A stretch of DNA of 64,000 nt from Marinilabiliaceae bacterium UBA5488 (GTDB lineage: Bacteria; Bacteroidota; Bacteroidia; Bacteroidales; Marinilabiliaceae), in contig DIPM01000005.1 in NCBI GenBank assembly GCA_002427105.1, forward strand, positions 5,572 to 69,571, written 5' to 3'. The notes beneath the pieces are model-generated. The model saw nothing but the letters and a program-made list of their open reading frames with translations, was not told the origin of the DNA and did no database searches. Below are positions 11,716 through 40,961 of the stretch, one piece after another (the first letter of the stretch is position 1; each line of letters opens with the position of its first letter). The position numbers were made by a program, and so were the translations under genes.

Positions 11716-12261
11716 TCAGCTATCCTCTATTACAAAGTAAAGTTTGTGATCTTCAATGCGATAATAGAGTGGCACAACATTAATCGCGGGGTATCGGTTT
11801 CTTAATCTCCTTGCCTCGGTGATTAAAAAATCGATTTCGTTGCCGATCTCGAATATTGGTGCAAACTGGTTAAAATGATCCCGGGCAAACTCTCGTTCCC
11901 AGCCTGCATTTTCAACCAGCCCTTTGATTAGGCTGTCTTTCTGCTTGCTCAGATTAACCATTCCACAGTTACTGTGACCTATCAGGGCAATATACTTAAC
12001 TCCGCCTACTGCCACGGCATAGGAGACCTTAAATTCATTATGGCGCAGATTTCCTCCTCCCGACCTCAATATAAATGCAAAATTATTCGGAATGCGTAAC
12101 TGGTTCCGGTTATCCATGCACATACTGATAAGCATCTCAGCCTTTGGAATTTCGCCAAAAGGCATATTGAAATTATGATAGTTTATTAATCGTTCAACAG
12201 GAGTATTCCTGTAGTTTTCTTTGATATCGTCAGGACTGTTAACGGCAACTAATCGATTCAT
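11716..12261 (-). CDS. Beta-class carbonic anhydrase-like protein
   Basis: 181 aa with the zinc-ligand motifs CMDNR (CxDxR) and GHSNCG (HxxC). Confidence 0.7.
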   Translation of the reverse strand: MNRLVAVNSPDDIKENYRNTPVERLINYHNFNMPFGEIPKAEMLISMCMDNRNQLRIPNNFAFILRSGGGNLRHNEFKVSYAVAVGGVKYIALIGHSNCGMVNLSKQKDSLIKGLVENAGWEREFARDHFNQFAPIFEIGNEIDFLITEARRLRNRYPAINVVPLYYRIEDHKLYFVIEDS

Positions 12262-12591: not shown

Positions 12592-13323
12592 ATGAAACAG
12601 TTAACAATTGCATTAATCGCATTAACAGTAATGGCAGCAGGCTGTACTTCACCTGTTAGCAAGACAAGCGTGGAGGAAGTCAAAACGACCCCTGAATACA
12701 CCGGCGAAGCTGTGAATCATGAGTTTGCGGCACTTCCCTACGCCTATGACGCGCTTGAACCATATATTGATGCCCAGACCATGGAAATCCACTACAGTCT
12801 CCATCATCAGGGCTATTACAACAACTTCCTAAAGGCAGTTGAGGCAACAGGCGTTCAAAATGCATCTTTAGAGTTTATTTTCGAGAATATTTCCACACTT
12901 AGCAGCGCTGTAAAAAACAACGCGGGAGGTTACTACAATCACAGCTTTTTCTGGTCTGTTCTTGCCCCGGCAGGAAGTGGCGGGGAGCCATCGGAAGCCC
13001 TATTCGAAGCAATTAACAATGCTTTTGGATCATTAGAAGGACTTAAAGAAAAATTCAATGCCGCCGCAACCGGTCAGTTTGGAAGCGGTTGGTCATGGCT
13101 TGTAGTTCAAAAAGATGGCACTCTGGCCGTTACAGGTTCAGCTAACCAGGACAATCCGCTAATGGATATTGCTGAGGTCAAAGGACAACCTATTCTTGCG
13201 ATTGATGTTTGGGAGCACGCCTACTATCTGAAATACAAGAATAAAAGGGTCGATTACGTGCAAAATTTTTGGAATATTGTTAATTGGAATGAAGTAAACC
13301 GTCTTTACCAGGAAGCCCTATAA
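12592..13323 (+). CDS. Fe/Mn superoxide dismutase with a lipoprotein-type signal peptide
   Basis: LPYAYDALEPYIDAQTMEIHYSLHHQ and DVWEHAYYL are the SOD metal-ligand motifs. The N-terminus MKQLTIALIALTVMAAGC is lipobox-like. Confidence 0.92.
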   Translation: MKQLTIALIALTVMAAGCTSPVSKTSVEEVKTTPEYTGEAVNHEFAALPYAYDALEPYIDAQTMEIHYSLHHQGYYNNFLKAVEATGVQNASLEFIFENISTLSSAVKNNAGGYYNHSFFWSVLAPAGSGGEPSEALFEAINNAFGSLEGLKEKFNAAATGQFGSGWSWLVVQKDGTLAVTGSANQDNPLMDIAEVKGQPILAIDVWEHAYYLKYKNKRVDYVQNFWNIVNWNEVNRLYQEAL

Positions 13324-13374: not shown

Positions 13375-14088
13375 TTACTTAATTCTATCGAGATACATCT
13401 TCCTGACATCAATCAGGAAGTCCAATTGCATATCAGGATTATAAATACGGATAATGTCCTGAATGCCAAAATTCACGTGGTAGTGGCCAATGGCCGCATC
13501 AAACTCGCTTTGCTCCCAATTGAATTTCACCTTCTTTGTTAAATCCTCAAAATACTTCCAGCTCAGCATCTTGGGAATGGTGAAGTAGCCGTGATCCTTC
13601 TCTGTAACATCAAAAAAGACACCCGGATGCTTTTCATCCAGGATAAAGAATTTCTTGATACGAATTACAGCCGGACCCTGGGGTTTGCCAGCCGGCTTCT
13701 TGCGAAACTCAATTCCTTCATCCATATAGCAGGCCTGCAACTCTGATATCAACTGATAATCAGAAAGGTGGCGAACACGAATAACATGAAACTCCTTGTT
13801 ATAAAGATTAACCACTCCGGCCGCGGCATTAAAATCTGACTGGAAATACTTCCTGATATTCTGAGTTGCTCGCGTAATCTCTTCAAGGGTATAAAGTTGT
13901 TTTACCACAAAATAGATATAGAGCGGCTTACTTTCATTGGGATGCTCAGAATAATAATTATAGAAGCCCGGGAAGGGCTCAGGCGCCTCCAACACAAAGG
14001 TGTTAGGCAGAATCTGGTCATCCAGCGTACGCAAGGTCTCCTGCTTCAGAAGATTGCCGTACCTTTCGGTAAATGGTAACGGATTCAT
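13375..14088 (-). CDS. Hypothetical cytoplasmic protein (no family recognised)
   Basis: 237-aa ORF with a clean ATG, no TM segment and no signal peptide. It lies on the same strand as, and downstream of, the ABC exporter genes. Confidence 0.7.
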   Translation of the reverse strand: MNPLPFTERYGNLLKQETLRTLDDQILPNTFVLEAPEPFPGFYNYYSEHPNESKPLYIYFVVKQLYTLEEITRATQNIRKYFQSDFNAAAGVVNLYNKEFHVIRVRHLSDYQLISELQACYMDEGIEFRKKPAGKPQGPAVIRIKKFFILDEKHPGVFFDVTEKDHGYFTIPKMLSWKYFEDLTKKVKFNWEQSEFDAAIGHYHVNFGIQDIIRIYNPDMQLDFLIDVRKMYLDRIK

Positions 14089-14212: not shown

Positions 14213-15982
14213 CTAATTCACTGGCTTTTCGACCATCTCTTTAACCAATCCTGCATATTTTCCGCCTAAGTCTAACAGTGATTGGTGAGTACCGCGCTCG
14301 ATAACTGCCCCGTTTTCCAGAACCAGGATAAGGTTGGAATGTTTGATGGTACAAAGACGGTGTGCTACGGCAATAACAGTACGTGTCGAAAAAATATTCT
14401 CGATAGCCATCTGGATATAATGTTCGGTAATAGAATCTACTGCACTTGTAGCCTCATCAAGGATGATAAGTTCGCGCTCGCCGCTAATGGCGCGGGCAAA
14501 GGATATAAGCTGCCCCTGGCCTTTGGAAAGATTATCGCCATTATCCTGAATCACAAAATCATACTTCTCTGGCAAGCGCTCAATAAACCTGTCGGCATAA
14601 ACAAAGCGGGCAGCTTCCTCAATATCAGCCTGTTCAATTTCCTTCCGCCCCAGTCCGATATTGAAGCCTATAGTATCATTAAAAAGATAAATATCCTGCT
14701 GCATAACTGAAACAGTCTGACGAATCTCTTGCAGAGGAATATCCCTTAACTCCATCCCGTTTATGGTAATTGAGCCCCGATATCCTGTATATGCGCCTGT
14801 GAGAAGGCGGATAATAGTTGATTTTCCCGAACCGGTAGTGCCCACCAGCGCAATGCGGTCACCTTTTCTTAAGGTGAAGGAAATATTCTTCAACACATCC
14901 GGGGCATCCGGCGAGTATCTGAAATACACCTCCTTAAATACTATCTCGTCAAATTCAATAGCTTGGGCATCACCATTAGCTGCCTCCTCCACATCCTGTT
15001 CAGACAGCACGCTGATATGGTCAAGTGCCGAAAGAGCCCTTTGTATGGTCGTAATTTGCTGGGCAAATTGGCGGACGGGAACGAACAGGCGACCCAAAGT
15101 GGTAATAAATACAATTAGCACTCCAATTGTATAATCCAGGTTCCACACCTGTGCTGCGCCAAACCAGATGACCAGAGCAGTGGCAACAGAGGTGATACCG
15201 TCAATAATGGAATAAAGCGAGCCATCATACACGTTTGAACGGTTCTGAGCATCTGCATATTGCTTGTTAAATCCGTCGTACTTTTTATATGCTGTCTCGG
15301 AGGCAGCATACAGCTGAATAGTCTTCATTCCGTAAAGGGTCTCCTGGAGATATCCTGCCGATTTTGCCAAACTACTACGCGATTCATCGAAGGCCTTTCT
15401 TATCTTCTTTCGGAAAAACCTGATAGTAAGATAGATAATAGGAACAACCAGGCCAACAACAAGTGTCAACTGCCAATTTATATAGAAGAGGTAGGCTGTC
15501 AGGGCAAGAGTCTTAATACTATCCGACAAAAGCCCAAGAATACCTGAGGCAAAGGATTCAGCAATGCTCTCCATATCACTTGTCAGGCGCGACAGAGTTA
15601 TACCAATAGGATTCTTATCATAGTAGCGCATGGGAAAGCGCAAGGAACGCCCGAAAAGCGTGCGCCTCATGTCCATAATAGCCAAACCTCCGGCCTTTGT
15701 GAAAGAGTAACTGTAAAGTCCGTCAAAAAGAAAGTTTATACCCAAAACCGCGGCTGCAATAAGGGTATAGAGTTTAAGACCCGGAATATCTCCCGTAAGT
15801 ATAAAGTCGTCGATAATACGCTCCACCAGCCACAAAAAGAGTATTCCTCCAAAGGTCGTGATAGGTATAGAAGCCAGGCTGATAAAAATCCATTTTTTAT
15901 GCGGGGCAAAATAGCGACCAAACCTCTTGATCAGTTTCCAGTCCTTAGACCTGAGAAATTCTATCTTCTTGAAAAAGCTCAT
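14213..15982 (-). CDS. ABC exporter half-transporter (TMD-NBD), catalytically canonical NBD
   Basis: 589 aa. Walker A GTTGSGKST, Walker B LIILDEATS, H-loop AVAHRL, but a non-consensus signature LSKGQGQL. Confidence 0.9.
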   Translation of the reverse strand: MSFFKKIEFLRSKDWKLIKRFGRYFAPHKKWIFISLASIPITTFGGILFLWLVERIIDDFILTGDIPGLKLYTLIAAAVLGINFLFDGLYSYSFTKAGGLAIMDMRRTLFGRSLRFPMRYYDKNPIGITLSRLTSDMESIAESFASGILGLLSDSIKTLALTAYLFYINWQLTLVVGLVVPIIYLTIRFFRKKIRKAFDESRSSLAKSAGYLQETLYGMKTIQLYAASETAYKKYDGFNKQYADAQNRSNVYDGSLYSIIDGITSVATALVIWFGAAQVWNLDYTIGVLIVFITTLGRLFVPVRQFAQQITTIQRALSALDHISVLSEQDVEEAANGDAQAIEFDEIVFKEVYFRYSPDAPDVLKNISFTLRKGDRIALVGTTGSGKSTIIRLLTGAYTGYRGSITINGMELRDIPLQEIRQTVSVMQQDIYLFNDTIGFNIGLGRKEIEQADIEEAARFVYADRFIERLPEKYDFVIQDNGDNLSKGQGQLISFARAISGERELIILDEATSAVDSITEHYIQMAIENIFSTRTVIAVAHRLCTIKHSNLILVLENGAVIERGTHQSLLDLGGKYAGLVKEMVEKPVN

Positions 15983-17727
15983 TTGCCACCTCCTTCCTGA
16001 ATATCACGGGTGTGGCGGTAAAAATCTGAGCTTTCGAGCAAATCCTTATGCTGCCCCATGGCCGCAATCTCACCATTTTCAAGTATAACATTAAAATCGC
16101 ATCGCTCCAGGACACTCATCCTGTTGGATACAATAATCAGAGTAGTATCTCTTTTTTCAAATAAGTTCTTAATTAAATATCGCTCCGTATCAGTATCAAC
16201 CGCTGAAAAGACATCGTCAAGTATCATAAGTTTTCCCGGCCAATATAGGGCACGGGCAAGGCTGATACGCTGCTTCTGACCACCTGAGAGCATCACCCCC
16301 TTTTCGCCCACTATAGTTTTCTTCCGTTTTGGGAAGCGCTCAAGTTCATCTGCCAGTGCGCTCTGCAGCACAACCTTTTCAATCTTCTCATCAAGGGGTT
16401 CAATTCCGCTGCCAAAAGCAATATTATTCTCTATGGTATCGGAAAAAAGGAAGACATCTTGGCCCACCGTGCGTACCGACTGCCTGATATCATCACCCCG
16501 CAACCGGCTTGCATCATAATCGCCAAACATAATCTGCCCCGGCTGAACCTTTAAATAGCCGTTTATACAGTTAATCAATGTTGTCTTTCCGGAGCCGAAA
16601 CCTCCGGTTATTCCAACTACCTGCCCGGGTTTAATTTCAAATGAAATATTTTTAAGGACATCTTCCTTGCCATTATGATATCTGTAGCTCAGGTTATTTA
16701 CTTTAAGACCCTTGTCGAGCAAAGTATCGCACTCAACTTCGGTCAGTGCCTCTTTATCATCATCAACTCCCTTGCGGTTCATAATGGTTTGGAGACTGGT
16801 AATTCCGACAAATCCTTGCTGGAACACAGTCAAAACCCAGCCCAGGCCGCTTATGGGGTGAGTCAGCAAAGCCGCGTAAGCTATAAACTCAGTCAGCTCA
16901 CCAATTGTAAATTCACCTTCGATGACCAACAGGCCTCCGGCAAAAAGTACCACAATCTTCAGCATTTGTTCCATGCTGCTTATCAGAGGCATCACAAAGG
17001 AACGAATCCATGATATTTTCATGGTAAAACCAAAAAGTTTTACATTTTCCTCTTCTACCTTGTCTTCTGCCCACTGATGAATATTGTAACTTTTGATTAC
17101 GCCATTGCCCGACAAAAAAGAAATAATACGTCCCGAAAGACTTTGGAGAGATTCCATTCTAAGGCGGGTATTCCTGACCATAAATGCCATTCCGAAGCGC
17201 ACAATAATAAACACAATAACGATGGGGATAATCGTATAAAGCGTTAATGAGGGCGACATTGACCACATTTTAAAGGGAGTGACAGACAAGGAGAAAGCGA
17301 TATTCACAATCTGGAGCAGTCCGAAGCCTGTAATCATCCTGACTCCGTTGATATCGTTATTTATTCGCGATATAATAGACCCGCTACTGTTATTATCGTA
17401 ATAATCTTTCCCAAAGGAAGCAAGTTTTCTGAACATCTCTCCTTTGAGTTGCCGCTCAATCAGCCGTCCCGGAACGAAAAACAGAATGCGCGAAAAAGTC
17501 CTGACTATCATTAAAAAGATAGCCAGGGCCATTATTGCTATAACCGAGCGCAGTAAAACATCATAATTATTCTCTCTGCCTGAGGCAATGGAGTCAATAC
17601 CTTGTTGCACATATTCAGGTATAGTTACCGATACCCAAATAGTAAGAATCAGGAAGATTATTCCTCCTGTGTACCACCACTTATATTTGTCTGTGTATCT
17701 AAGTAAAAACCTTAATTTTGACAACAT
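15979..17727 (-). CDS. ABC exporter half-transporter (TMD-NBD), degenerate NBD
   Basis: 582 aa. Walker A GGFGSGKTT, signature LSGGQKQR, Walker B LMILDD (Asp where the catalytic Glu is expected), H-loop position VSNRMS (Asn for His). ATGA overlap with the downstream partner. Confidence 0.9.
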   Translation of the reverse strand: MLSKLRFLLRYTDKYKWWYTGGIIFLILTIWVSVTIPEYVQQGIDSIASGRENNYDVLLRSVIAIMALAIFLMIVRTFSRILFFVPGRLIERQLKGEMFRKLASFGKDYYDNNSSGSIISRINNDINGVRMITGFGLLQIVNIAFSLSVTPFKMWSMSPSLTLYTIIPIVIVFIIVRFGMAFMVRNTRLRMESLQSLSGRIISFLSGNGVIKSYNIHQWAEDKVEEENVKLFGFTMKISWIRSFVMPLISSMEQMLKIVVLFAGGLLVIEGEFTIGELTEFIAYAALLTHPISGLGWVLTVFQQGFVGITSLQTIMNRKGVDDDKEALTEVECDTLLDKGLKVNNLSYRYHNGKEDVLKNISFEIKPGQVVGITGGFGSGKTTLINCINGYLKVQPGQIMFGDYDASRLRGDDIRQSVRTVGQDVFLFSDTIENNIAFGSGIEPLDEKIEKVVLQSALADELERFPKRKKTIVGEKGVMLSGGQKQRISLARALYWPGKLMILDDVFSAVDTDTERYLIKNLFEKRDTTLIIVSNRMSVLERCDFNVILENGEIAAMGQHKDLLESSDFYRHTRDIQEGGGK

Positions 17728-17762
17728 CCTCTATTTATACTTCTAATTATTATGGCTGAATC

Positions 17763-19094
17763 TTACTCTATTAGCTTCGAAATATCACGATTCCATTTGT
17801 TATAGTAGAGATTAAGCCACTTTTCGGCACTTGTAATCCCGGTTGATACTATTTCATTCAATGGCTCTAAGTACTTCTGTTCCGGCTCTATGGAGCATTT
17901 CAAGGCACGCCTGGCAAGACCATCCTGCGCAAAAGATAAAAGCTTAGCCGCCAGCTCATGCAAAACTACGGAATTGCTTTCAGCTCTCAGCCCTTTCACG
18001 GGTACTTCTGCACGAAGACCTATAATAGTGTCAATACCCAGGTGCAGAGCCAAACTATGAGCAGCATCAAGAGCCTGAGTATCATAAAGCAAGCCTACCC
18101 AAAAGGCAGCAAGGGCAACAATCATGGCGGGCGAACCGCTGTCGGCGCCTCGTAGCTCGATATAGCGCTTAAGTCTGACATCCGGAAAAACAGTAGTCAC
18201 ATGAGTTTCCCAATCTGCCATCGATGGTTGGAAATGATGCTTTCCTTTCATAAAATCTCTGAAGGTCATTCCATCAGCCGGATAATAGACTCCGTCACGA
18301 AAAATAAAATAGAGCGGAACGTCGAGCAGGTATTGAGTATAGCGTTCAAAGCCAAAATTATCACCGAAAATAAAAGGTAAGAATCCACATCTATCGGGAT
18401 CGGTGTCATCCCACACATGCGAACGATAGCTAAGATAGCCGTTGGGCTGCCTTTCCGTAAAAGGAGAATTCGCGAAAAGAGCTGTTATTACGGGCTGAAA
18501 TGCTTGTGCAACCTGCATTTTTCGAACCATATCAGCTTCTGAGCTGAAGTCAAGATTCACCTGAATCGAGGAGGTTCGCGACATCATGTCCAAGCCAAGG
18601 TTTCCCTTGCCGGGCATCCAGGCTCGCATATAGCTGTATCTCTCTTTAGGCATCCAGTCAAGATCTTCACGCCTCCAAAAGGGGTCGAAGCCTATCGGCA
18701 GTCTGACAAATCCCATCTTGGCGGCCATCTCCTCAAGCTTCTGCGTGTATTCTATGGTTTCCTTATACGTTTCATGCACGGTTTCGAGTTTGCTTCCCGA
18801 CAGTTCAAACTGGCCGGCAGGCTCAATTGTAATCGAGGCGCCGTCCTTTTGCAAAGCTATAATATTTCCTTTTTCAATAATTGGCAACCAGCCGTTTTCT
18901 GCTCCTTCCGATAGTATCTCTCTGATGCCCGGCCTTGAATTATACCGCAAACGAGTTAAGTCTCCGGCCTTAAGCAAAAACTGCTCATGCTCGGTACCTA
19001 TTCCCCAATCCTTCTCAGGTTTTATTCCTGCCCTGAACCAATCGGACAAGTCTGACACCTCCAACTTCTCCGACTCAACAAGCTTCTCTGTCAT
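17763..19094 (-). CDS. gshA: Glutamate-cysteine ligase, plant/proteobacterial GSH1 (GCS2) type
   Basis: 443 aa. GTEHEQF, MSRTSSIQVNLDFSSEADMVRK, ALFANSPFTE, TTVFPDVRLKRYIELRGAD and AFWVGLLYD closely match my recollection of plant GSH1. Confidence 0.85.
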   Translation of the reverse strand: MTEKLVESEKLEVSDLSDWFRAGIKPEKDWGIGTEHEQFLLKAGDLTRLRYNSRPGIREILSEGAENGWLPIIEKGNIIALQKDGASITIEPAGQFELSGSKLETVHETYKETIEYTQKLEEMAAKMGFVRLPIGFDPFWRREDLDWMPKERYSYMRAWMPGKGNLGLDMMSRTSSIQVNLDFSSEADMVRKMQVAQAFQPVITALFANSPFTERQPNGYLSYRSHVWDDTDPDRCGFLPFIFGDNFGFERYTQYLLDVPLYFIFRDGVYYPADGMTFRDFMKGKHHFQPSMADWETHVTTVFPDVRLKRYIELRGADSGSPAMIVALAAFWVGLLYDTQALDAAHSLALHLGIDTIIGLRAEVPVKGLRAESNSVVLHELAAKLLSFAQDGLARRALKCSIEPEQKYLEPLNEIVSTGITSAEKWLNLYYNKWNRDISKLIE

Positions 19095-20098
19095 TTATTC
19101 TTTATATTAAATATACAATCCAATACATATTTCTCAACATTCCGGTTCTCCCCAATGTAGGGGAAGTCGTGCATTGAAAGCATTGCCGGAGCATTAAGTT
19201 CAACAACAATATAATTTGCCGGTGAGAGCTCTGCATCAGAGTCACTAATAATAATATCTACTCCTGCTATTCGCAAGCCTGCCGCAGCTGCAGCCCTTAC
19301 AGCCACATCTTTGTAATAATCAGGCATAGTGTCGGTCACATCAATACTGTCGCCTCCGGTGCTCAGATTTGAGTTTTTTCGTAAATACACCTTTTCTCCC
19401 TTCGGCACAACTGAGTCAAGGCCAAACCCGGCAGACTCCAGATGACGCTCCACCTCTTCATCAACAACAATCTTCAAGAGAGGATAGCGATAATCGTCTC
19501 CACGCCCGATATTCTTTTCCTCAATAAGCTGCTTAATAGTTGAAAGCCCGTCGCCCACTATATTTGCAGGCTCACGATAGGCAATCGCTCTAACGACTCC
19601 ATCAATCACCAAAAAGCGATATTCCTTACCGGGGTAGTACTCTTCAATAATTACCCTGTCGGAATATTCAAAGGCCCGCTCAATGGCTCTTTGAAGCTGA
19701 CTCTGATTGGCAATGCGGGTGCTTACCCCGATACCATGATCGGTATCAACGGGCTTAACGACCAGAGGATATTCCGGCAGCTCGAATTCATTCCATTTTT
19801 CTCCTGCCTTAATCATCACCGCTTTCGCGTGATTTACGCCCTGTCTGGCCAAAAACTGCTTAGTCATCCACTTATCGTTCGAAATCCAATAAGCAATCAG
19901 GCTATTTCCGTCAGATATAGTGCCCTCAAGTATAATATATTCCTTGTTTTTATATTTAACGGCAATCAGGTTGTTATCAGCATCAATAATCTCTAATTCC
20001 AGCTTTCGCCTCAATATTTCAGCTATAATTATCTGGGTGCTAGCCTCAAAATTCTCATAGCCGCTTAGCGGAGTAAAGCTGAAAGTCAAATTCGCCAT
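19091..20098 (-). CDS. ATP-grasp ligase resembling the C-terminal (glutathione synthetase) half of bifunctional GshF
   Basis: 335 aa. PLVVKP, YLRKNSNLSTGGDSIDVTD and VVELNAPAMLSMHDFP. ATGA overlap with gshA. Confidence 0.7.
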   Translation of the reverse strand: MANLTFSFTPLSGYENFEASTQIIIAEILRRKLELEIIDADNNLIAVKYKNKEYIILEGTISDGNSLIAYWISNDKWMTKQFLARQGVNHAKAVMIKAGEKWNEFELPEYPLVVKPVDTDHGIGVSTRIANQSQLQRAIERAFEYSDRVIIEEYYPGKEYRFLVIDGVVRAIAYREPANIVGDGLSTIKQLIEEKNIGRGDDYRYPLLKIVVDEEVERHLESAGFGLDSVVPKGEKVYLRKNSNLSTGGDSIDVTDTMPDYYKDVAVRAAAAAGLRIAGVDIIISDSDAELSPANYIVVELNAPAMLSMHDFPYIGENRNVEKYVLDCIFNIKNK

Positions 20099-20212
20099 AG
20101 TCTTATAGGTTTAAATAGAACTGAAACATTAGCATTTTAATAGAACGAGGATGCAAGGCTTTTGTTCCGGGCTTATACATTATTAACCTATAGACCTAAT
20201 ATGATTAATATA

Positions 20213-20246
20213 ATTAAAAAAAAGCCGGCAAGCCGGCTTTTTTAAA
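20213..20246. terminator. Bidirectional intrinsic terminator
   Basis: aaaaaaaagccgg-caag-ccggctttttt: a GC stem with a tetraloop, flanked by A8 and T6. Confidence 0.8.
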
Positions 20247-40067: not shown

Positions 40068-40961
40068 CTATTCGGAGTATTTAAAGAGTCTCACGTAGTC
40101 CTTGAAGGCCTTTACCGATTCCACAAAGCTAAACTTTTCAGGAAGCTCTGCCTTGAGGTCTTTGACTCTCAGACCCGAGACCAGGAAAGGAGAATCCGGA
40201 AAAATACTATGATATTCTTCCATTACCTTCTCCATCTCATCCTTAGATAAAATTGAAACAAATGACATCATAAAGATATCGGCAGGCCTCACCCTGTGAA
40301 CAGAGCGCAAATCATCGGCAGTGACCGATGCCCCAAGGTAAATCACTTCCAGCCCTTCCTTACGTGATATCAGATTATAAAAAAGAAGTTCGATCTCGTG
40401 TTTTTCATGCTTTGGCAAGAAAAAGACAATACGCGGACCCTTCCGGGTATTATTCTGCATCTCATTGTCAATTGCCACACAAAGCTTTTGGCGAATCAGG
40501 CTGGTCATAAAACACTCCTGAGCCGGAGCGATGGTACCCGCCTGCCACAGGATGGAAATCCTCTCCAGGAAAGGAAACAAAACAGTCTCGACAGTACATT
40601 CAAAACCATGTTTTATAATGGCCGCTGTAAGGGCATTAGCAAACTTGTTTTCATCGAGTTCCAGTAGAGAAATCATCATATTCTCAATTTGCACATTGCT
40701 AACACGGTTGTCGATAGCTATATCGAGCACTCTGTTTTTGATTTCTTCCTCAGTCATTCCGGCAATATGCGACACCTTAATCCCATGATGGTTAAGAATA
40801 GAAATATTCAAAAGGCGCTTGAGATCGCAATCTGAGTAAAATCGAATATTGGTATCGGTACGCTGAGGCTCAATCAATTGATACCTCCGCTCCCACATAC
40901 GTATAGTGTGCGCCTTAATTCCTGAAATTTTTTCTAAATCTTTAATCGAATACCTTCCCAT
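40068..40961 (-). CDS. MerR-family regulator with a CarH/LitR-like B12-binding-type C-terminal module
   Basis: N-terminal MerR HTH (YSIKDLEKISGIKAHTIRMWERRY). W-x9-E-C (WQAGTIAPAQEC) and E-x-H (EKHEIE) lie where CarH has Wx9EH and ExHxxG. Rossmann-like ...VIYLGASV... Confidence 0.65.
   Translation of the reverse strand: MGRYSIKDLEKISGIKAHTIRMWERRYQLIEPQRTDTNIRFYSDCDLKRLLNISILNHHGIKVSHIAGMTEEEIKNRVLDIAIDNRVSNVQIENMMISLLELDENKFANALTAAIIKHGFECTVETVLFPFLERISILWQAGTIAPAQECFMTSLIRQKLCVAIDNEMQNNTRKGPRIVFFLPKHEKHEIELLFYNLISRKEGLEVIYLGASVTADDLRSVHRVRPADIFMMSFVSILSKDEMEKVMEEYHSIFPDSPFLVSGLRVKDLKAELPEKFSFVESVKAFKDYVRLFKYSE

What the first reader, a model, noticed from the sequence alone, without database searches (positions are those of the whole stretch)
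14213..20098. Ligase-ligase-exporter-exporter operon: candidate gamma-glutamyl thiol peptide synthesis-and-export module
Four minus-strand genes are packed as one unit. ATGA start/stop overlaps occur at 19091-19094 and 15979-15982, and only a 35-nt gap separates 17727 from 17763. A strong terminator (20213-20246) insulates the unit from the upstream gene.

Gene 1 is a free-standing ATP-grasp ligase whose motifs (YLRKNSNLSTGGDSIDVTD, VELNAPAMLSMHDFP) resemble the C-terminal glutathione-synthetase half of bifunctional GshF. Gene 2 is a plant/proteobacterial-type glutamate-cysteine ligase (MSRTSSIQVNLDFSSEADMVRK, ALFANSPFTE, VFPDVRLKRYIELRGAD). Genes 3 and 4 form a heterodimeric ABC exporter.

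A GshF-type synthetase paired with a GSH1-type ligase, and both physically coupled to a dedicated exporter, is not a textbook glutathione locus. It suggests the product (glutathione or another gamma-Glu-Cys-X peptide) is made for export, by analogy with CydDC-mediated glutathione/cysteine export in E. coli. The organism also encodes Rnf, a periplasm-directed SOD lies 1 kb away, and glutathione synthesis is patchy in this phylum.
Basis: partly seen in the sequence, partly recalled or inferred. Interest (0 to 1): 0.72.

Follow-up and report, generated by a model that had tools for sequence, protein, structure and literature searches.

The report
Thiol-peptide synthesis genes fused to exporter operon
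One order of marine and fermentative bacteria keeps two enzymes that should build glutathione, or a close relative of it, in a fixed four-gene unit with a two-part export pump, which suggests the peptide is made partly for delivery outside the cytoplasm.

Summary
Four minus-strand genes (14213-20098) encode four proteins.

- **ATP-grasp ligase:** free-standing, and closest to the glutathione-synthetase half of GshF.
- **Glutamate-cysteine ligase:** a bona fide plant-type enzyme, above NCBIfam's curated cut-off and about 50% identical to plant GCL structures.
- **Two ABC half-transporters:** complementary degenerate and consensus ATP-site motifs mark them as an obligate heterodimeric exporter.

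The order ligase-ligase-exporter-exporter holds at 71/72, 71/72 and 65/65 informative junctions. This was tested across loci of Marinilabiliaceae and Prolixibacteraceae reached independently from the ATP-grasp, GCL and ABC sides. The flanks differ in at least 12 upstream and 15 downstream ways.

Two caveats are new. First, the ATP-grasp lies outside the GshF fusion clade (99/100 bootstraps). It has replaced residues that are invariant in GshF around the nucleophile site (DTDHG, NAPAMLSMH), so the third residue may not be glycine. Second, relatives of the ABC pair at 47-55% identity occur elsewhere without the ligases.

Best reading: synthesis of gamma-Glu-Cys-X with dedicated export. Product identity and transport are inferred, not shown. 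It is a new variant of a known kind and moderately interesting.

The parts
20218..20243 (-). Intrinsic-terminator-like hairpin ending the upstream alpha-L-arabinofuranosidase gene; it marks the 5' boundary of the unit
   Evidence: The scan found 11 pairs, 5 of them G-C, a 4-nt loop and a T run. Sequence read.
20099..20217 (-). 119-nt upstream intergenic region, the presumed promoter/leader of the unit
   Evidence: Read. No Rfam family matches it. No exact Bacteroidetes -7 box TAnnTTTG is present. The promoter is therefore not identified.
19091..20098 (-). Stand-alone ATP-grasp ligase (335 aa) of the GshF-C / cyanophycin-synthetase-G clan; predicted gamma-Glu-Cys:amino-acid ligase (glutathione-synthetase-like)
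   Evidence: Pfam ATP-grasp_6, RimK and Dala_Dala_lig_C. NF002688 GshF 311 bits on profile positions 425-753. PDB 3ln7 E 2.2e-56, 3ln6 E 1.7e-52, CphA1 7lg5 E 1.4e-47. Clade-specific motifs KPxDTDHG and ELNAPAMLSMH.
17763..19094 (-). Plant/alpha-proteobacterial-type glutamate-cysteine ligase (443 aa); its start overlaps the ATP-grasp stop by 4 nt
   Evidence: TIGR01436 525 bits against a curated cut-off of 463. Pfam GCS2 E 1.9e-70. Full-length match to plant GCL structures 6gmo/2gwc, E about 1e-126. Overlap read.
17728..17762 (-). 35-nt spacer between GCL and the first ABC gene
   Evidence: Read. No terminator-like site here.
15979..17727 (-). ABC half-transporter A (582 aa, TMD-NBD). It carries the degenerate Walker B (LDD instead of LDE) and H-loop (SNR), and a consensus LSGGQ signature.
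   Evidence: Pfam ABC_membrane plus ABC_tran. Best half-transporter structures are TmrB 5mkk_B and BmrC/YheI. Motifs are conserved in 36/36 orthologues.
14213..15982 (-). ABC half-transporter B (589 aa, TMD-NBD). It carries the consensus Walker B (LDE) and H-loop (AHR), and a degenerate signature (LSKGQ). Its start overlaps the stop of A by 4 nt.
   Evidence: Pfam. Best half-transporter structures are TM_0288, TmrA and MsbA. Motifs conserved: LDE 33/33, AHR 33/33, LS[KRQ]GQ 31/33. Overlap read.

Best explanation
The four genes form one transcription unit that makes a gamma-glutamyl-cysteine-based tripeptide thiol and moves it, or its disulfide or conjugates, out of the cytoplasm.

**Proposed steps.**
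1. The plant-type GCL joins Glu and Cys to give gamma-Glu-Cys.
2. The stand-alone ATP-grasp activates the Cys carboxylate of gamma-Glu-Cys as an acyl phosphate and adds a third amino acid. Glycine is the default, which would give glutathione. Another residue is possible because the nucleophile-site motifs differ from GshF.
3. The two ABC half-transporters assemble into an obligate heterodimer with one catalytic and one degenerate ATP site. This heterodimer pumps the peptide from the cytoplasm to the periplasm of this diderm bacterium, where it could buffer redox state or detoxify oxidants and metals.

**Shown:** gene order, overlaps, family membership of GCL, homology of the ATP-grasp, heterodimer signature, and conservation of the block.

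**Inferred:** co-transcription, identity of the third residue, and that the pump's substrate is the peptide.
For: **Ligases.**
- GCL passes the curated equivalog cut-off and aligns end to end with plant GCL structures.
- The ATP-grasp aligns over residues 8-330 with the glutathione-synthetase module of GshF. It scores higher to GshF than to any other NCBIfam family.
- It shares GshF-type features that cyanophycin synthetase lacks: the NSNLSTGGDS motif and a hydrophobic residue at the CphA1 Glu215 position.

**Spacing.** Spacing of -4, 35 and -4 nt, with no internal terminator, fits one transcript.

**Linkage.**
- The four gene families occur in 45, 43, 39 and 34 of the loci analysed. No flanking family occurs in more than 10.
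- Gene order is identical in all 34 complete loci, with at least 12 upstream and 15 downstream contexts.
- Junction integrity is 71/72, 71/72 (72/72 counted from the ABC side) and 65/65.
- Probing from ABC_A, 30/30 relatives at 62% identity or more that have upstream DNA carry GCL. All 25 whose contigs reach further also carry the ATP-grasp.
- Probing from GCL, 3/3 further lineages show the block with new flanks.

**Exporter.** The asymmetry of the two ABC proteins is conserved in all orthologues. It matches TM287/288, TmrAB and BmrCD-type exporters.

**Context.** In one sub-lineage the block lies next to YaaA (peroxide stress) and a lipoprotein-type SOD.
Against: **No experiment.** No experimental datum exists for any of the four proteins.

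**The ATP-grasp differs from GshF.**
- It is outside the GshF fusion clade (99/100 bootstraps).
- It replaces residues invariant in 71/71 GshF representatives: N120 to D, N304 to P, P305 to A.
- It replaces the residues at the catalytic and nucleophile positions: F/Y121 to H, as in cyanophycin synthetase, and H/Y/M308 to S.
- Its nearest stand-alone relatives are not next to a GCL: L058 at 61% identity, L055, L056 and L057 at 36-40%.

**The ABC pair is not a known thiol pump.**
- It matches no thiol-exporter family above cut-off: CydD 186/222 bits against 435, CydC 157/190 bits against 329.
- One true pair at 50/55% identity with the same degenerate-site signature (L131) has no ligases nearby. 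Neither do 44 ABC_A-like genes at 47-51% identity.

**Other points.**
- Two Mangrovibacterium MAG loci break the block (L043, L027).
- Intergenic gaps reach 200-380 nt in some genera, so co-transcription is not guaranteed everywhere.
Confidence: 0.55

Rival explanations
1. The ligase pair makes a cytoplasmic thiol (glutathione or an analogue) for ordinary intracellular use. The ABC heterodimer is a general-purpose exporter of drugs, lipids, peptides or thiol conjugates of toxic compounds. It is merely co-regulated with thiol synthesis as part of a stress response and is not a dedicated pump for the free peptide.
For: - The ABC proteins match generic families best (SmdA, MsbA, TmrAB, BmrCD, P-glycoprotein halves), and none above a curated cut-off.
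- Relatives with the same degenerate-site signature exist without ligases (L131; the 47-51% identity group).
- L043 keeps the ligases without the pump.
Against: - The GCL-ABC_A junction is as well conserved as the ligase-ligase junction (71/72 and 72/72), although both flanks were rearranged many times.
- Every member of the ABC clade at 62% identity or more is ligase-linked.
- A purely regulatory association would not need such strict adjacency. Export of glutathione conjugates would still make the pump functionally dependent on the ligases.
Confidence: 0.25
2. The ATP-grasp is not a glycine-adding glutathione synthetase. It adds a different amino acid to gamma-Glu-Cys, or extends it repeatedly. 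The module would then make and secrete a new gamma-glutamyl peptide: a new low-molecular-weight thiol or a metal-binding peptide.
For: - Clade-invariant changes occur at positions shown in CphA1 structures to contact the acyl phosphate and the incoming amino acid: His121 corresponds to CphA1 His267, and Ser308 to CphA1 Arg458.
- The loop N-A-P-A-M-L-S replaces the GshF-invariant N-[FY]-N-P.
- The His/MLSMH combination recurs in other stand-alone ATP-grasps that are not GCL-linked (P0129, P0248).
- The clade lies outside GshF.
Against: - Overall similarity is highest to GshF.
- Glycine is the simplest acceptor, and no sequence rule for acceptor choice in this family has been established.
- My AF2 model of the enzyme was too poor (pLDDT 60) to examine the pocket.
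Confidence: 0.15
3. The ABC pair works inwards, as an exporter-fold importer like the siderophore importers YbtPQ and IrtAB (established knowledge). It would bring in a precursor such as cystine, a gamma-glutamyl peptide or a metal chelate for the ligases.
For: Only the general precedent that type IV ABC heterodimers can import. Nothing found here points to it.
Against: - No substrate-binding protein or siderophore-interaction domain is encoded in the block.
- The closest solved relatives are exporters.
Confidence: 0.05

Closest known systems
GshF (GshAB), the bifunctional glutamate-cysteine ligase/glutathione synthetase of Streptococcus agalactiae, Pasteurella multocida and Listeria (PDB 3ln6, 3ln7)
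   Same: The ATP-grasp aligns over its whole length with the GshF glutathione-synthetase module at about 36-41% identity, including the ATP-grasp_6 subdomain and the NSN(I/L)STGGDS motif. It is genetically coupled to a GCL.
   Different: - It is not fused.
- The partner GCL is the GCS2/plant type, not the GshA (PF04262) type found in all sampled fusions.
- It lies outside the fusion clade.
- The P-loop is DTDHG instead of STN[FY]G, and the nucleophile loop is NAPAMLS instead of N[FY]NPAx[HYM].
- GshF loci in my sample (L044-L048) have no adjacent relative of this ABC pair.
Plant and alpha-proteobacterial two-gene glutathione pathway (GSH1-type GCL plus a canonical GshB/GSH2 synthetase)
   Same: The GCL is of the same family, with an equivalog-level hit and about 50% identity to Arabidopsis and Brassica enzymes.
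   Different: The second enzyme is not GshB-type; there is no PF02955/PF02951 hit. In addition, the genes are operon-linked to an exporter.
CydDC of Escherichia coli, a heterodimeric ABC exporter reported to export glutathione and cysteine to the periplasm (Pittman 2005, as cited in PMC10344953)
   Same: It is a two-gene heterodimeric TMD-NBD exporter in a diderm, with the same proposed physiological role of supplying reductant to the periplasm.
   Different: It is not orthologous: CydD/CydC models score 157-222 bits against cut-offs of 329-435. CydDC is genetically tied to cytochrome bd, not to gsh genes. From my own knowledge, its real substrate is debated.
Heterodimeric type IV ABC exporters with one degenerate ATP site (TM287/288, TmrAB, BmrCD)
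   Same: Architecture, pairing and the exact division of degenerate and consensus motifs between the two chains match. These are the best half-transporter structure hits.
   Different: Those pumps are drug or peptide exporters with no biosynthetic partner. Here the pair is locked to a two-step peptide synthesis pathway.
Cyanophycin synthetase CphA1 G domain, and the 'cyanophycin metabolism-associated ABC transporter' family NF052233
   Same: The ATP-grasp belongs to the same clan (271 bits, E 1e-47 to 7lg5) and shares the catalytic P-loop His. This is a precedent for an ABC exporter genetically associated with an ATP-grasp peptide synthetase.
   Different: - It has no CphA N domain and no Mur-ligase M domain.
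- CphA1 Glu215 and Arg458, the substrate-recognition residues, are Trp and Ser here.
- The ABC scores (224/290 bits) are far below the family cut-off of 880.
Stand-alone GshF-C-like ATP-grasps noted next to GshA-like genes in Methanobacterium (PMC7278568), and in Leptospira
   Same: They are free-standing enzymes of the same family, predicted to complete glutathione synthesis.
   Different: Leptospira-type proteins keep the GshF motifs (STNFG, NFNPVLY) and group with the fusions. The window clade does not. No exporter linkage has been reported for them.

Membership tests
GshF glutathione-synthetase module (NF002688 / TIGR01435) | Full-length homology of the ATP-grasp_6 subdomain plus ATP-grasp core to the C-terminal module | tested here: met
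   NF002688 positions 425-753 matched, 311 bits. PF18419 34 bits. 3ln7 residues 422-753, E 2.2e-56.
GshF glutathione-synthetase module (NF002688 / TIGR01435) | Fusion to an N-terminal GshA-type (PF04262) GCL domain; whole-protein score above the curated cut-off | tested here: not met
   The protein is 335 aa and stand-alone. It scores 311 bits against a cut-off of 425 and 206 against 656. All sampled fusions carry PF04262; the neighbouring GCL here is PF04107.
GshF glutathione-synthetase module (NF002688 / TIGR01435) | Family-invariant active-site motifs: P-loop K-P-x-S/T-T-N-[FY]-G and loop E-x-N-[FY]-N-P | tested here: not met
   In 71 GshF representatives, N120, N304 and P305 are 71/71 and F/Y121 is 66/71. 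The window clade has D120, H121, A303, P304 and A305, invariant in 35 members (A305 in most).
GshF glutathione-synthetase module (NF002688 / TIGR01435) | Phylogenetic position inside the GshF clade | tested here: not met
   In a neighbour-joining bootstrap, all GshF fusions are separable from the window clade in 99/100 replicates. The window clade plus P0121 has 100% support.
GshF glutathione-synthetase module (NF002688 / TIGR01435) | ATP-dependent ligation of glycine to gamma-Glu-Cys | not testable with these tools
   This needs an enzyme assay.
Plant-type glutamate-cysteine ligase (TIGR01436, GCS2) | Score above the curated equivalog cut-off, and end-to-end alignment with solved plant GCL | tested here: met
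   525 bits against a cut-off of 463. 6gmo residues 3-439 aligned to query 1-440, E 4.5e-126.
Heterodimeric type IV ABC exporter with one degenerate ATP site (TM287/288, TmrAB, BmrCD type) | Two adjacent TMD-NBD half-transporter genes. One chain has non-catalytic Walker B and H-loop with a consensus signature. The partner has catalytic Walker B and H-loop with a degenerate signature. | tested here: met
   ABC_A has LDD, SNR and LSGGQ. ABC_B has LDE, AHR and LSKGQ. These are conserved in 36 and 33 orthologues respectively. Best solved half-transporters are TmrB/BmrC for A and TM288/TmrA for B.
CydDC thiol-reductant ABC exporter (TIGR02857 / TIGR02868) | Score above the curated cut-offs | tested here: not met
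   CydD model: 186 and 222 bits against 435. CydC model: 157 and 190 bits against 329.
CydDC thiol-reductant ABC exporter (TIGR02857 / TIGR02868) | Transport of glutathione or cysteine to the periplasm | not testable with these tools
   This needs vesicle or proteoliposome transport assays.
Cyanophycin synthetase (TIGR02068) | N domain, G (ATP-grasp) domain and M (Mur-ligase) domain; Glu215 and Arg458 substrate-recognition residues | tested here: not met
   Only the G-domain region matches, at 271 bits against a cut-off of 850. Trp71 and Ser308 occupy the Glu215 and Arg458 positions. Only His267 is shared, as His121.
Canonical prokaryotic glutathione synthetase GshB (PF02951 / PF02955) | Match to the GSH-S_N or GSH-S_ATP domains | tested here: not met
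   Neither domain is among the Pfam hits at E <= 0.001.

The most novel reading that the evidence does not exclude
The stand-alone ATP-grasp, with its cyanophycin-synthetase-like catalytic His and its rebuilt nucleophile loop, adds a residue other than glycine to gamma-Glu-Cys. Marinilabiliaceae and Prolixibacteraceae would then make a previously undescribed low-molecular-weight thiol. The heterodimeric ABC pump would be its dedicated exporter to the periplasm. This would be a lineage-specific extracytoplasmic thiol redox system in a phylum where gene surveys found no glutathione pathway (PMC6282198).
Probability: 0.2. Interest if true: 0.8.

Novelty: new variant of a known kind. Interest (0 to 1): 0.55.

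Why it matters
Gene-content surveys of low-molecular-weight thiols place glutathione genes in Proteobacteria, Cyanobacteria and eukaryotes, and bacillithiol genes in Bacteroidetes (PMC6282198). Those surveys would miss a pathway built from a plant-type GCL and a non-GshB, non-GshF synthetase.

If this module works as proposed, three things follow:
- It predicts a glutathione-type thiol in an abundant order of sediment and fermenter Bacteroidota.
- It offers a genetically defined candidate for a bacterial thiol-peptide exporter. This function is still poorly pinned down even in E. coli.
- It provides a compact stand-alone synthetase with an altered active site, of possible use for making glutathione analogues.

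Cultured species carry the block, including Marinilabilia salmonicolor, Geofilum rubicundum, Anaerophaga thermohalophila and Saccharicrinis carchari. The prediction is therefore directly testable.

Tried and rejected
1. **AF2 model of the ATP-grasp.** Built from 35 homologues at 65-73% identity. It gave pLDDT 60.1 and pTM 0.53, with the active-site loops below 50. It was too poor for a fold search or pocket analysis and was not used.
2. **RNA elements.** An Rfam scan of the whole window gave no hit, so there is no known riboswitch or leader.
3. **Promoter.** A search for the Bacteroidetes promoter (TTTG N17-21 TAnnTTTG, or the -7 box alone) found nothing in 20099-20217 or in the internal junctions. 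The promoter is left unidentified. The sigma-70 scan is not meaningful for this phylum.
4. **Literature.** Searches combining GshF or glutathione with Bacteroidetes, Marinilabiliales, Prolixibacteraceae or Marinilabiliaceae found no description of this locus. The GshF structure paper (Stout 2012) is not held. The discriminating residues were therefore taken from the CphA1 paper PMC9427784.
5. **Leptospira context.** The look-up of the Leptospira stand-alone enzyme P0136 failed because it is not on record.
6. **Downstream 237-aa gene.** I considered it as a fifth member and rejected it. It adjoins the block in only 6 loci (7 with the window) and occurs elsewhere in Marinilabilia genomes.
7. **SOD and Rnf.** I considered them as functional context and rejected them as part of the unit. 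SOD adjacency is limited to one sub-lineage.
8. **Glutathione-using enzymes in the window.** Ten further window ORFs were scanned for glutaredoxin, GST, peroxidase and similar; none was found.
9. **Not possible here.** A phylum-wide presence/absence profile of the ABC pair against the ligases could not be done.

Full report
**Observation**

The region holds four minus-strand ORFs:
- 19091-20098 (335 aa)
- 17763-19094 (443 aa)
- 15979-17727 (582 aa)
- 14213-15982 (589 aa)

The first/second and third/fourth pairs overlap by the four bases ATGA, read directly. The second and third are 35 nt apart. A hairpin plus T run at 20243-20218 follows the upstream arabinofuranosidase gene. No terminator-like site lies in any internal junction.

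**What the proteins are**

*Gene 2* is a glutamate-cysteine ligase of the plant/alpha-proteobacterial type. It scores 525 bits to TIGR01436 against a curated cut-off of 463. It aligns end to end with the Arabidopsis and Brassica enzymes 6gmo and 2gwc at E about 1e-126.

*Gene 1* is an ATP-grasp protein with the small ATP-grasp_6 subdomain.
- Its best NCBIfam match is the C-terminal half of bifunctional GshF (311 bits, profile positions 425-753).
- Cyanophycin synthetase (271 bits) and N-acetylglutaminylglutamine synthetase (181 bits) come next. Ddl and RimK are far behind.
- Among solved structures the best are GshF of P. multocida (E 2.2e-56, residues 422-753) and S. agalactiae, then CphA1.
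- It has no GshB-type domain.

*Genes 3 and 4* are TMD-NBD half-transporters.
- ABC_A has Walker B LDD, H-loop SNR and a consensus LSGGQ.
- ABC_B has Walker B LDE, H-loop AHR and a degenerate LSKGQ.
- This split is kept in 36 and 33 orthologues.
- By established knowledge of TM287/288, TmrAB and BmrCD, this is the signature of an obligate heterodimer with one catalytic and one degenerate ATP site. Those proteins are indeed the best half-transporter structure hits.
- No curated ABC family, including CydD/CydC, is reached above its cut-off.

**Is the four-gene unit real?**

I approached it from three sides.

*From the ATP-grasp.* A scan of one genome per species returned 54 loci. In 43 of them, all Marinilabiliaceae or Prolixibacteraceae, the protein is 63-73% identical.
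- Gene-family clustering shows the four families in 45, 43, 39 and 34 loci. The window and the more distant L055 are counted among these, and contig ends account for the decline. No flanking family is in more than 10 loci.
- All 34 loci that hold all four genes have the same order and strand. They show at least 12 different upstream and 15 different downstream neighbours. These include LytTR regulators, LptF/G, a ChaN-type haem-binding protein, AMP-binding enzymes, YaaA and arabinofuranosidase.

*From ABC_A.* A metagenome scan returned 80 loci.
- Of the 35 loci at 62% identity or more, 30 have upstream sequence. All 30 carry GCL, and all 25 that reach further also carry the ATP-grasp.
- One of these, L059, is the source contig of the window: 99% identical, from a fermentation metagenome. 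A 98%-identical GCL is labelled Marinilabiliaceae bacterium.

*From GCL.* Three further lineages, including Saccharicrinis carchari, show the same block with yet other flanks.

*Pooled junction integrity*:

| Junction | Intact / informative |
|---|---|
| ATP-grasp to GCL | 71/72 |
| GCL to ABC_A | 71/72 (72/72 counted from the ABC side) |
| ABC_A to ABC_B | 65/65 |

The two breaks are both in Mangrovibacterium MAGs. L043 has the ligases followed by GH28, an M20 peptidase and a glycosyltransferase. L027 has the ATP-grasp followed by a RhuM fragment. Both flanks have been rearranged many times while the internal junctions almost never have. I therefore infer selection for linkage, not mere shared ancestry. 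Spacing varies (-8 to 379, -37 to 245 and -31 to 249 nt by my simple ORF calls). Co-transcription is likely in the window organism but is not proven, and it may not hold everywhere.

**Placement of the ATP-grasp**

An exhaustive search of 1.84 billion representatives found 1228 relatives at E <= 1e-30.
- The window clade collapses into one 50% cluster (P0121, 62% identity).
- The next relative is a stand-alone protein at 46%.
- Then come about 25 stand-alone proteins and about 71 GshF fusions at 35-43%, and multi-ATP-grasp or CphA-like proteins at about 30%.
- All six sampled GshF-length (C-terminal ATP-grasp) proteins carry the GshA-type PF04262 domain.

In a neighbour-joining tree the window clade groups with four other stand-alone proteins, beside the GshF clade and away from the CphA-like proteins. 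Bootstrap support is 100% for the window clade plus P0121. GshF fusions are separable from it in 99 of 100 replicates. The enzyme is therefore GshF-like but not a detached GshF domain.

**Active site**

The CphA1 structure paper lists residues that separate CphA1 from GshF (PMC9427784):

| CphA1 residue | In GshF |
|---|---|
| P-loop His267 | Tyr/Phe |
| Glu215 | Leu |
| Arg458 | Met/Tyr |

Aligning the window protein and tabulating 156 sequences gave three results.
- The Glu215 position is Trp. This is hydrophobic, like GshF.
- The P-loop is K-P-x-D-T-D-H-G. It carries the CphA-type His, and Asp in place of the Asn found in 71/71 GshF.
- The nucleophile loop is E-L-N-A-P-A-M-L-S-M-H. GshF has E-x-N-[FY]-N-P-A-x-[HYM]-x-H, with N and P in 71/71.

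All these residues except A305 are invariant in 35 clade members. The enzyme keeps GshF's NSNLSTGGDS motif. This points to the same chemistry: an acyl phosphate on a peptide C-terminus attacked by an amino acid. The pocket for the incoming amino acid is altered, however. Glycine remains the default, but I put it at only about even odds.

The nearest relatives outside the clade are in other contexts:
- L058 (61% identity): no GCL downstream.
- L055: next to a subtilase.
- L056: next to a second ATP-grasp.

The assignment of gamma-Glu-Cys as the acyl donor thus rests on GCL linkage within the clade.

**The exporter**

The result is mixed.
- Inside the clade at 62% identity or more, the pump is never found without them.
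- There is then a gap to 47-51% identity. At that level, 44 marine-metagenome loci carry an ABC_A-like half-transporter (Walker B LDN) in a fixed, different context. YceG lies upstream, a soluble double-NBD ABC ATPase follows, then a TraB/GumN protein. No ligases are present.
- One 61%-GC contig (L131) carries a true pair at 50/55% identity with the same LDD/LSKGQ asymmetry and no ligases.

The pump therefore comes from a wider exporter family and was apparently recruited once to the ligases. What it carries is inferred from linkage only.

**Comparison with what is known**

The library holds no description of this locus.
- A gene survey reported gshA-B only in Proteobacteria, Cyanobacteria, eukaryotes and one actinobacterium, with bacillithiol genes in Bacteroidetes (PMC6282198).
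- Stand-alone GshF-C-like proteins next to GshA-like genes have been noted bioinformatically in Methanobacterium (PMC7278568).
- Leptospira has stand-alone proteins that keep the GshF motifs.
- CydDC is the precedent for glutathione export to the periplasm (PMC10344953), but it is not orthologous.

The combination found here appears undescribed: a plant-type GCL, a divergent stand-alone synthetase and an operon-locked heterodimeric exporter. I file it as a new variant of a known kind.

**Verdict**

- The block is order-specific.
- The synthetase is not GshF.
- The third residue is uncertain.
- Export is inferred.

My confidence in the synthesis-plus-export reading is 0.55. The ligase half alone is about 0.85. 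The main rival is that the pump is only co-regulated (0.25). Interest is 0.55: a solid, directly testable prediction of moderate surprise for thiol-biology specialists.

Noticed in passing
window 13375-14088 (minus strand): A 237-aa protein lies 124 nt downstream of ABC_B with no terminator between them. It has no Pfam or NCBIfam match. It has 117 homologues, nearly all about 237 aa and unnamed; those that carry an organism name are Marinilabiliaceae genera. It is more conserved (77-85% identity) than the ligases. The AF2 model is confident (pLDDT 89.8, pTM 0.85) and shows two beta-alpha-beta-type halves, yet it has no significant PDB match (best E 0.04, TM 0.2). It adjoins the block in only 6 loci (7 with the window), so I do not count it as part of the unit.
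   Followed up: partly
window 12592-13323 (plus strand); L004 16578-17348, and also L021 and L026: A Fe/Mn superoxide dismutase with a lipoprotein-type signal (MKQLTIALIALTVMAAGC) faces the block. In Geofilum-type genomes a YaaA peroxide-stress gene (PF03883) is inserted between ABC_B and the 237-aa gene. This forms a small oxidative-stress neighbourhood limited to one sub-lineage.
   Followed up: partly
L090-L138 (for example L100 4839-10533): In 44 marine-metagenome contigs, a 617-aa ABC half-transporter 47-51% identical to ABC_A has a non-catalytic Walker B (LDN) and no adjacent membrane partner. It sits in a fixed context: YceG/MltG, the half-transporter, a 516-aa soluble double-NBD ABC ATPase, then a TraB/GumN protein. 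How a lone degenerate half-transporter works there is unexplained.
   Followed up: partly
L056 1575-3411: A stand-alone ATP-grasp at 40% identity to the window enzyme shares the His/MLSMH active-site signature. It overlaps a second, RimK-type ATP-grasp gene, which suggests a different two-ligase peptide pathway.
   Followed up: no
window 11716-12261 (minus strand): A 181-aa protein matches beta-carbonic anhydrase (Pro_CA) only weakly and partially: 27.5 bits, residues 78-119. It is conserved next to the SOD in close relatives (76-97% identity in L002, L059 and L089).
   Followed up: no
window 40068-40961 (minus strand): A MerR-family regulator is fused to B12-binding domains, in the style of a CarH light or B12 sensor. 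It is unrelated to the finding.
   Followed up: no
whole window; L059: The window is 99% identical to part of a 92-kb contig of a fermentation metagenome (ENA UOOK01000103). The nearest named species (Geofilum rubicundum, Alkaliflexus MAGs) are only about 61-81% identical at protein level, so the organism is an uncultured Marinilabiliaceae member.
   Followed up: yes
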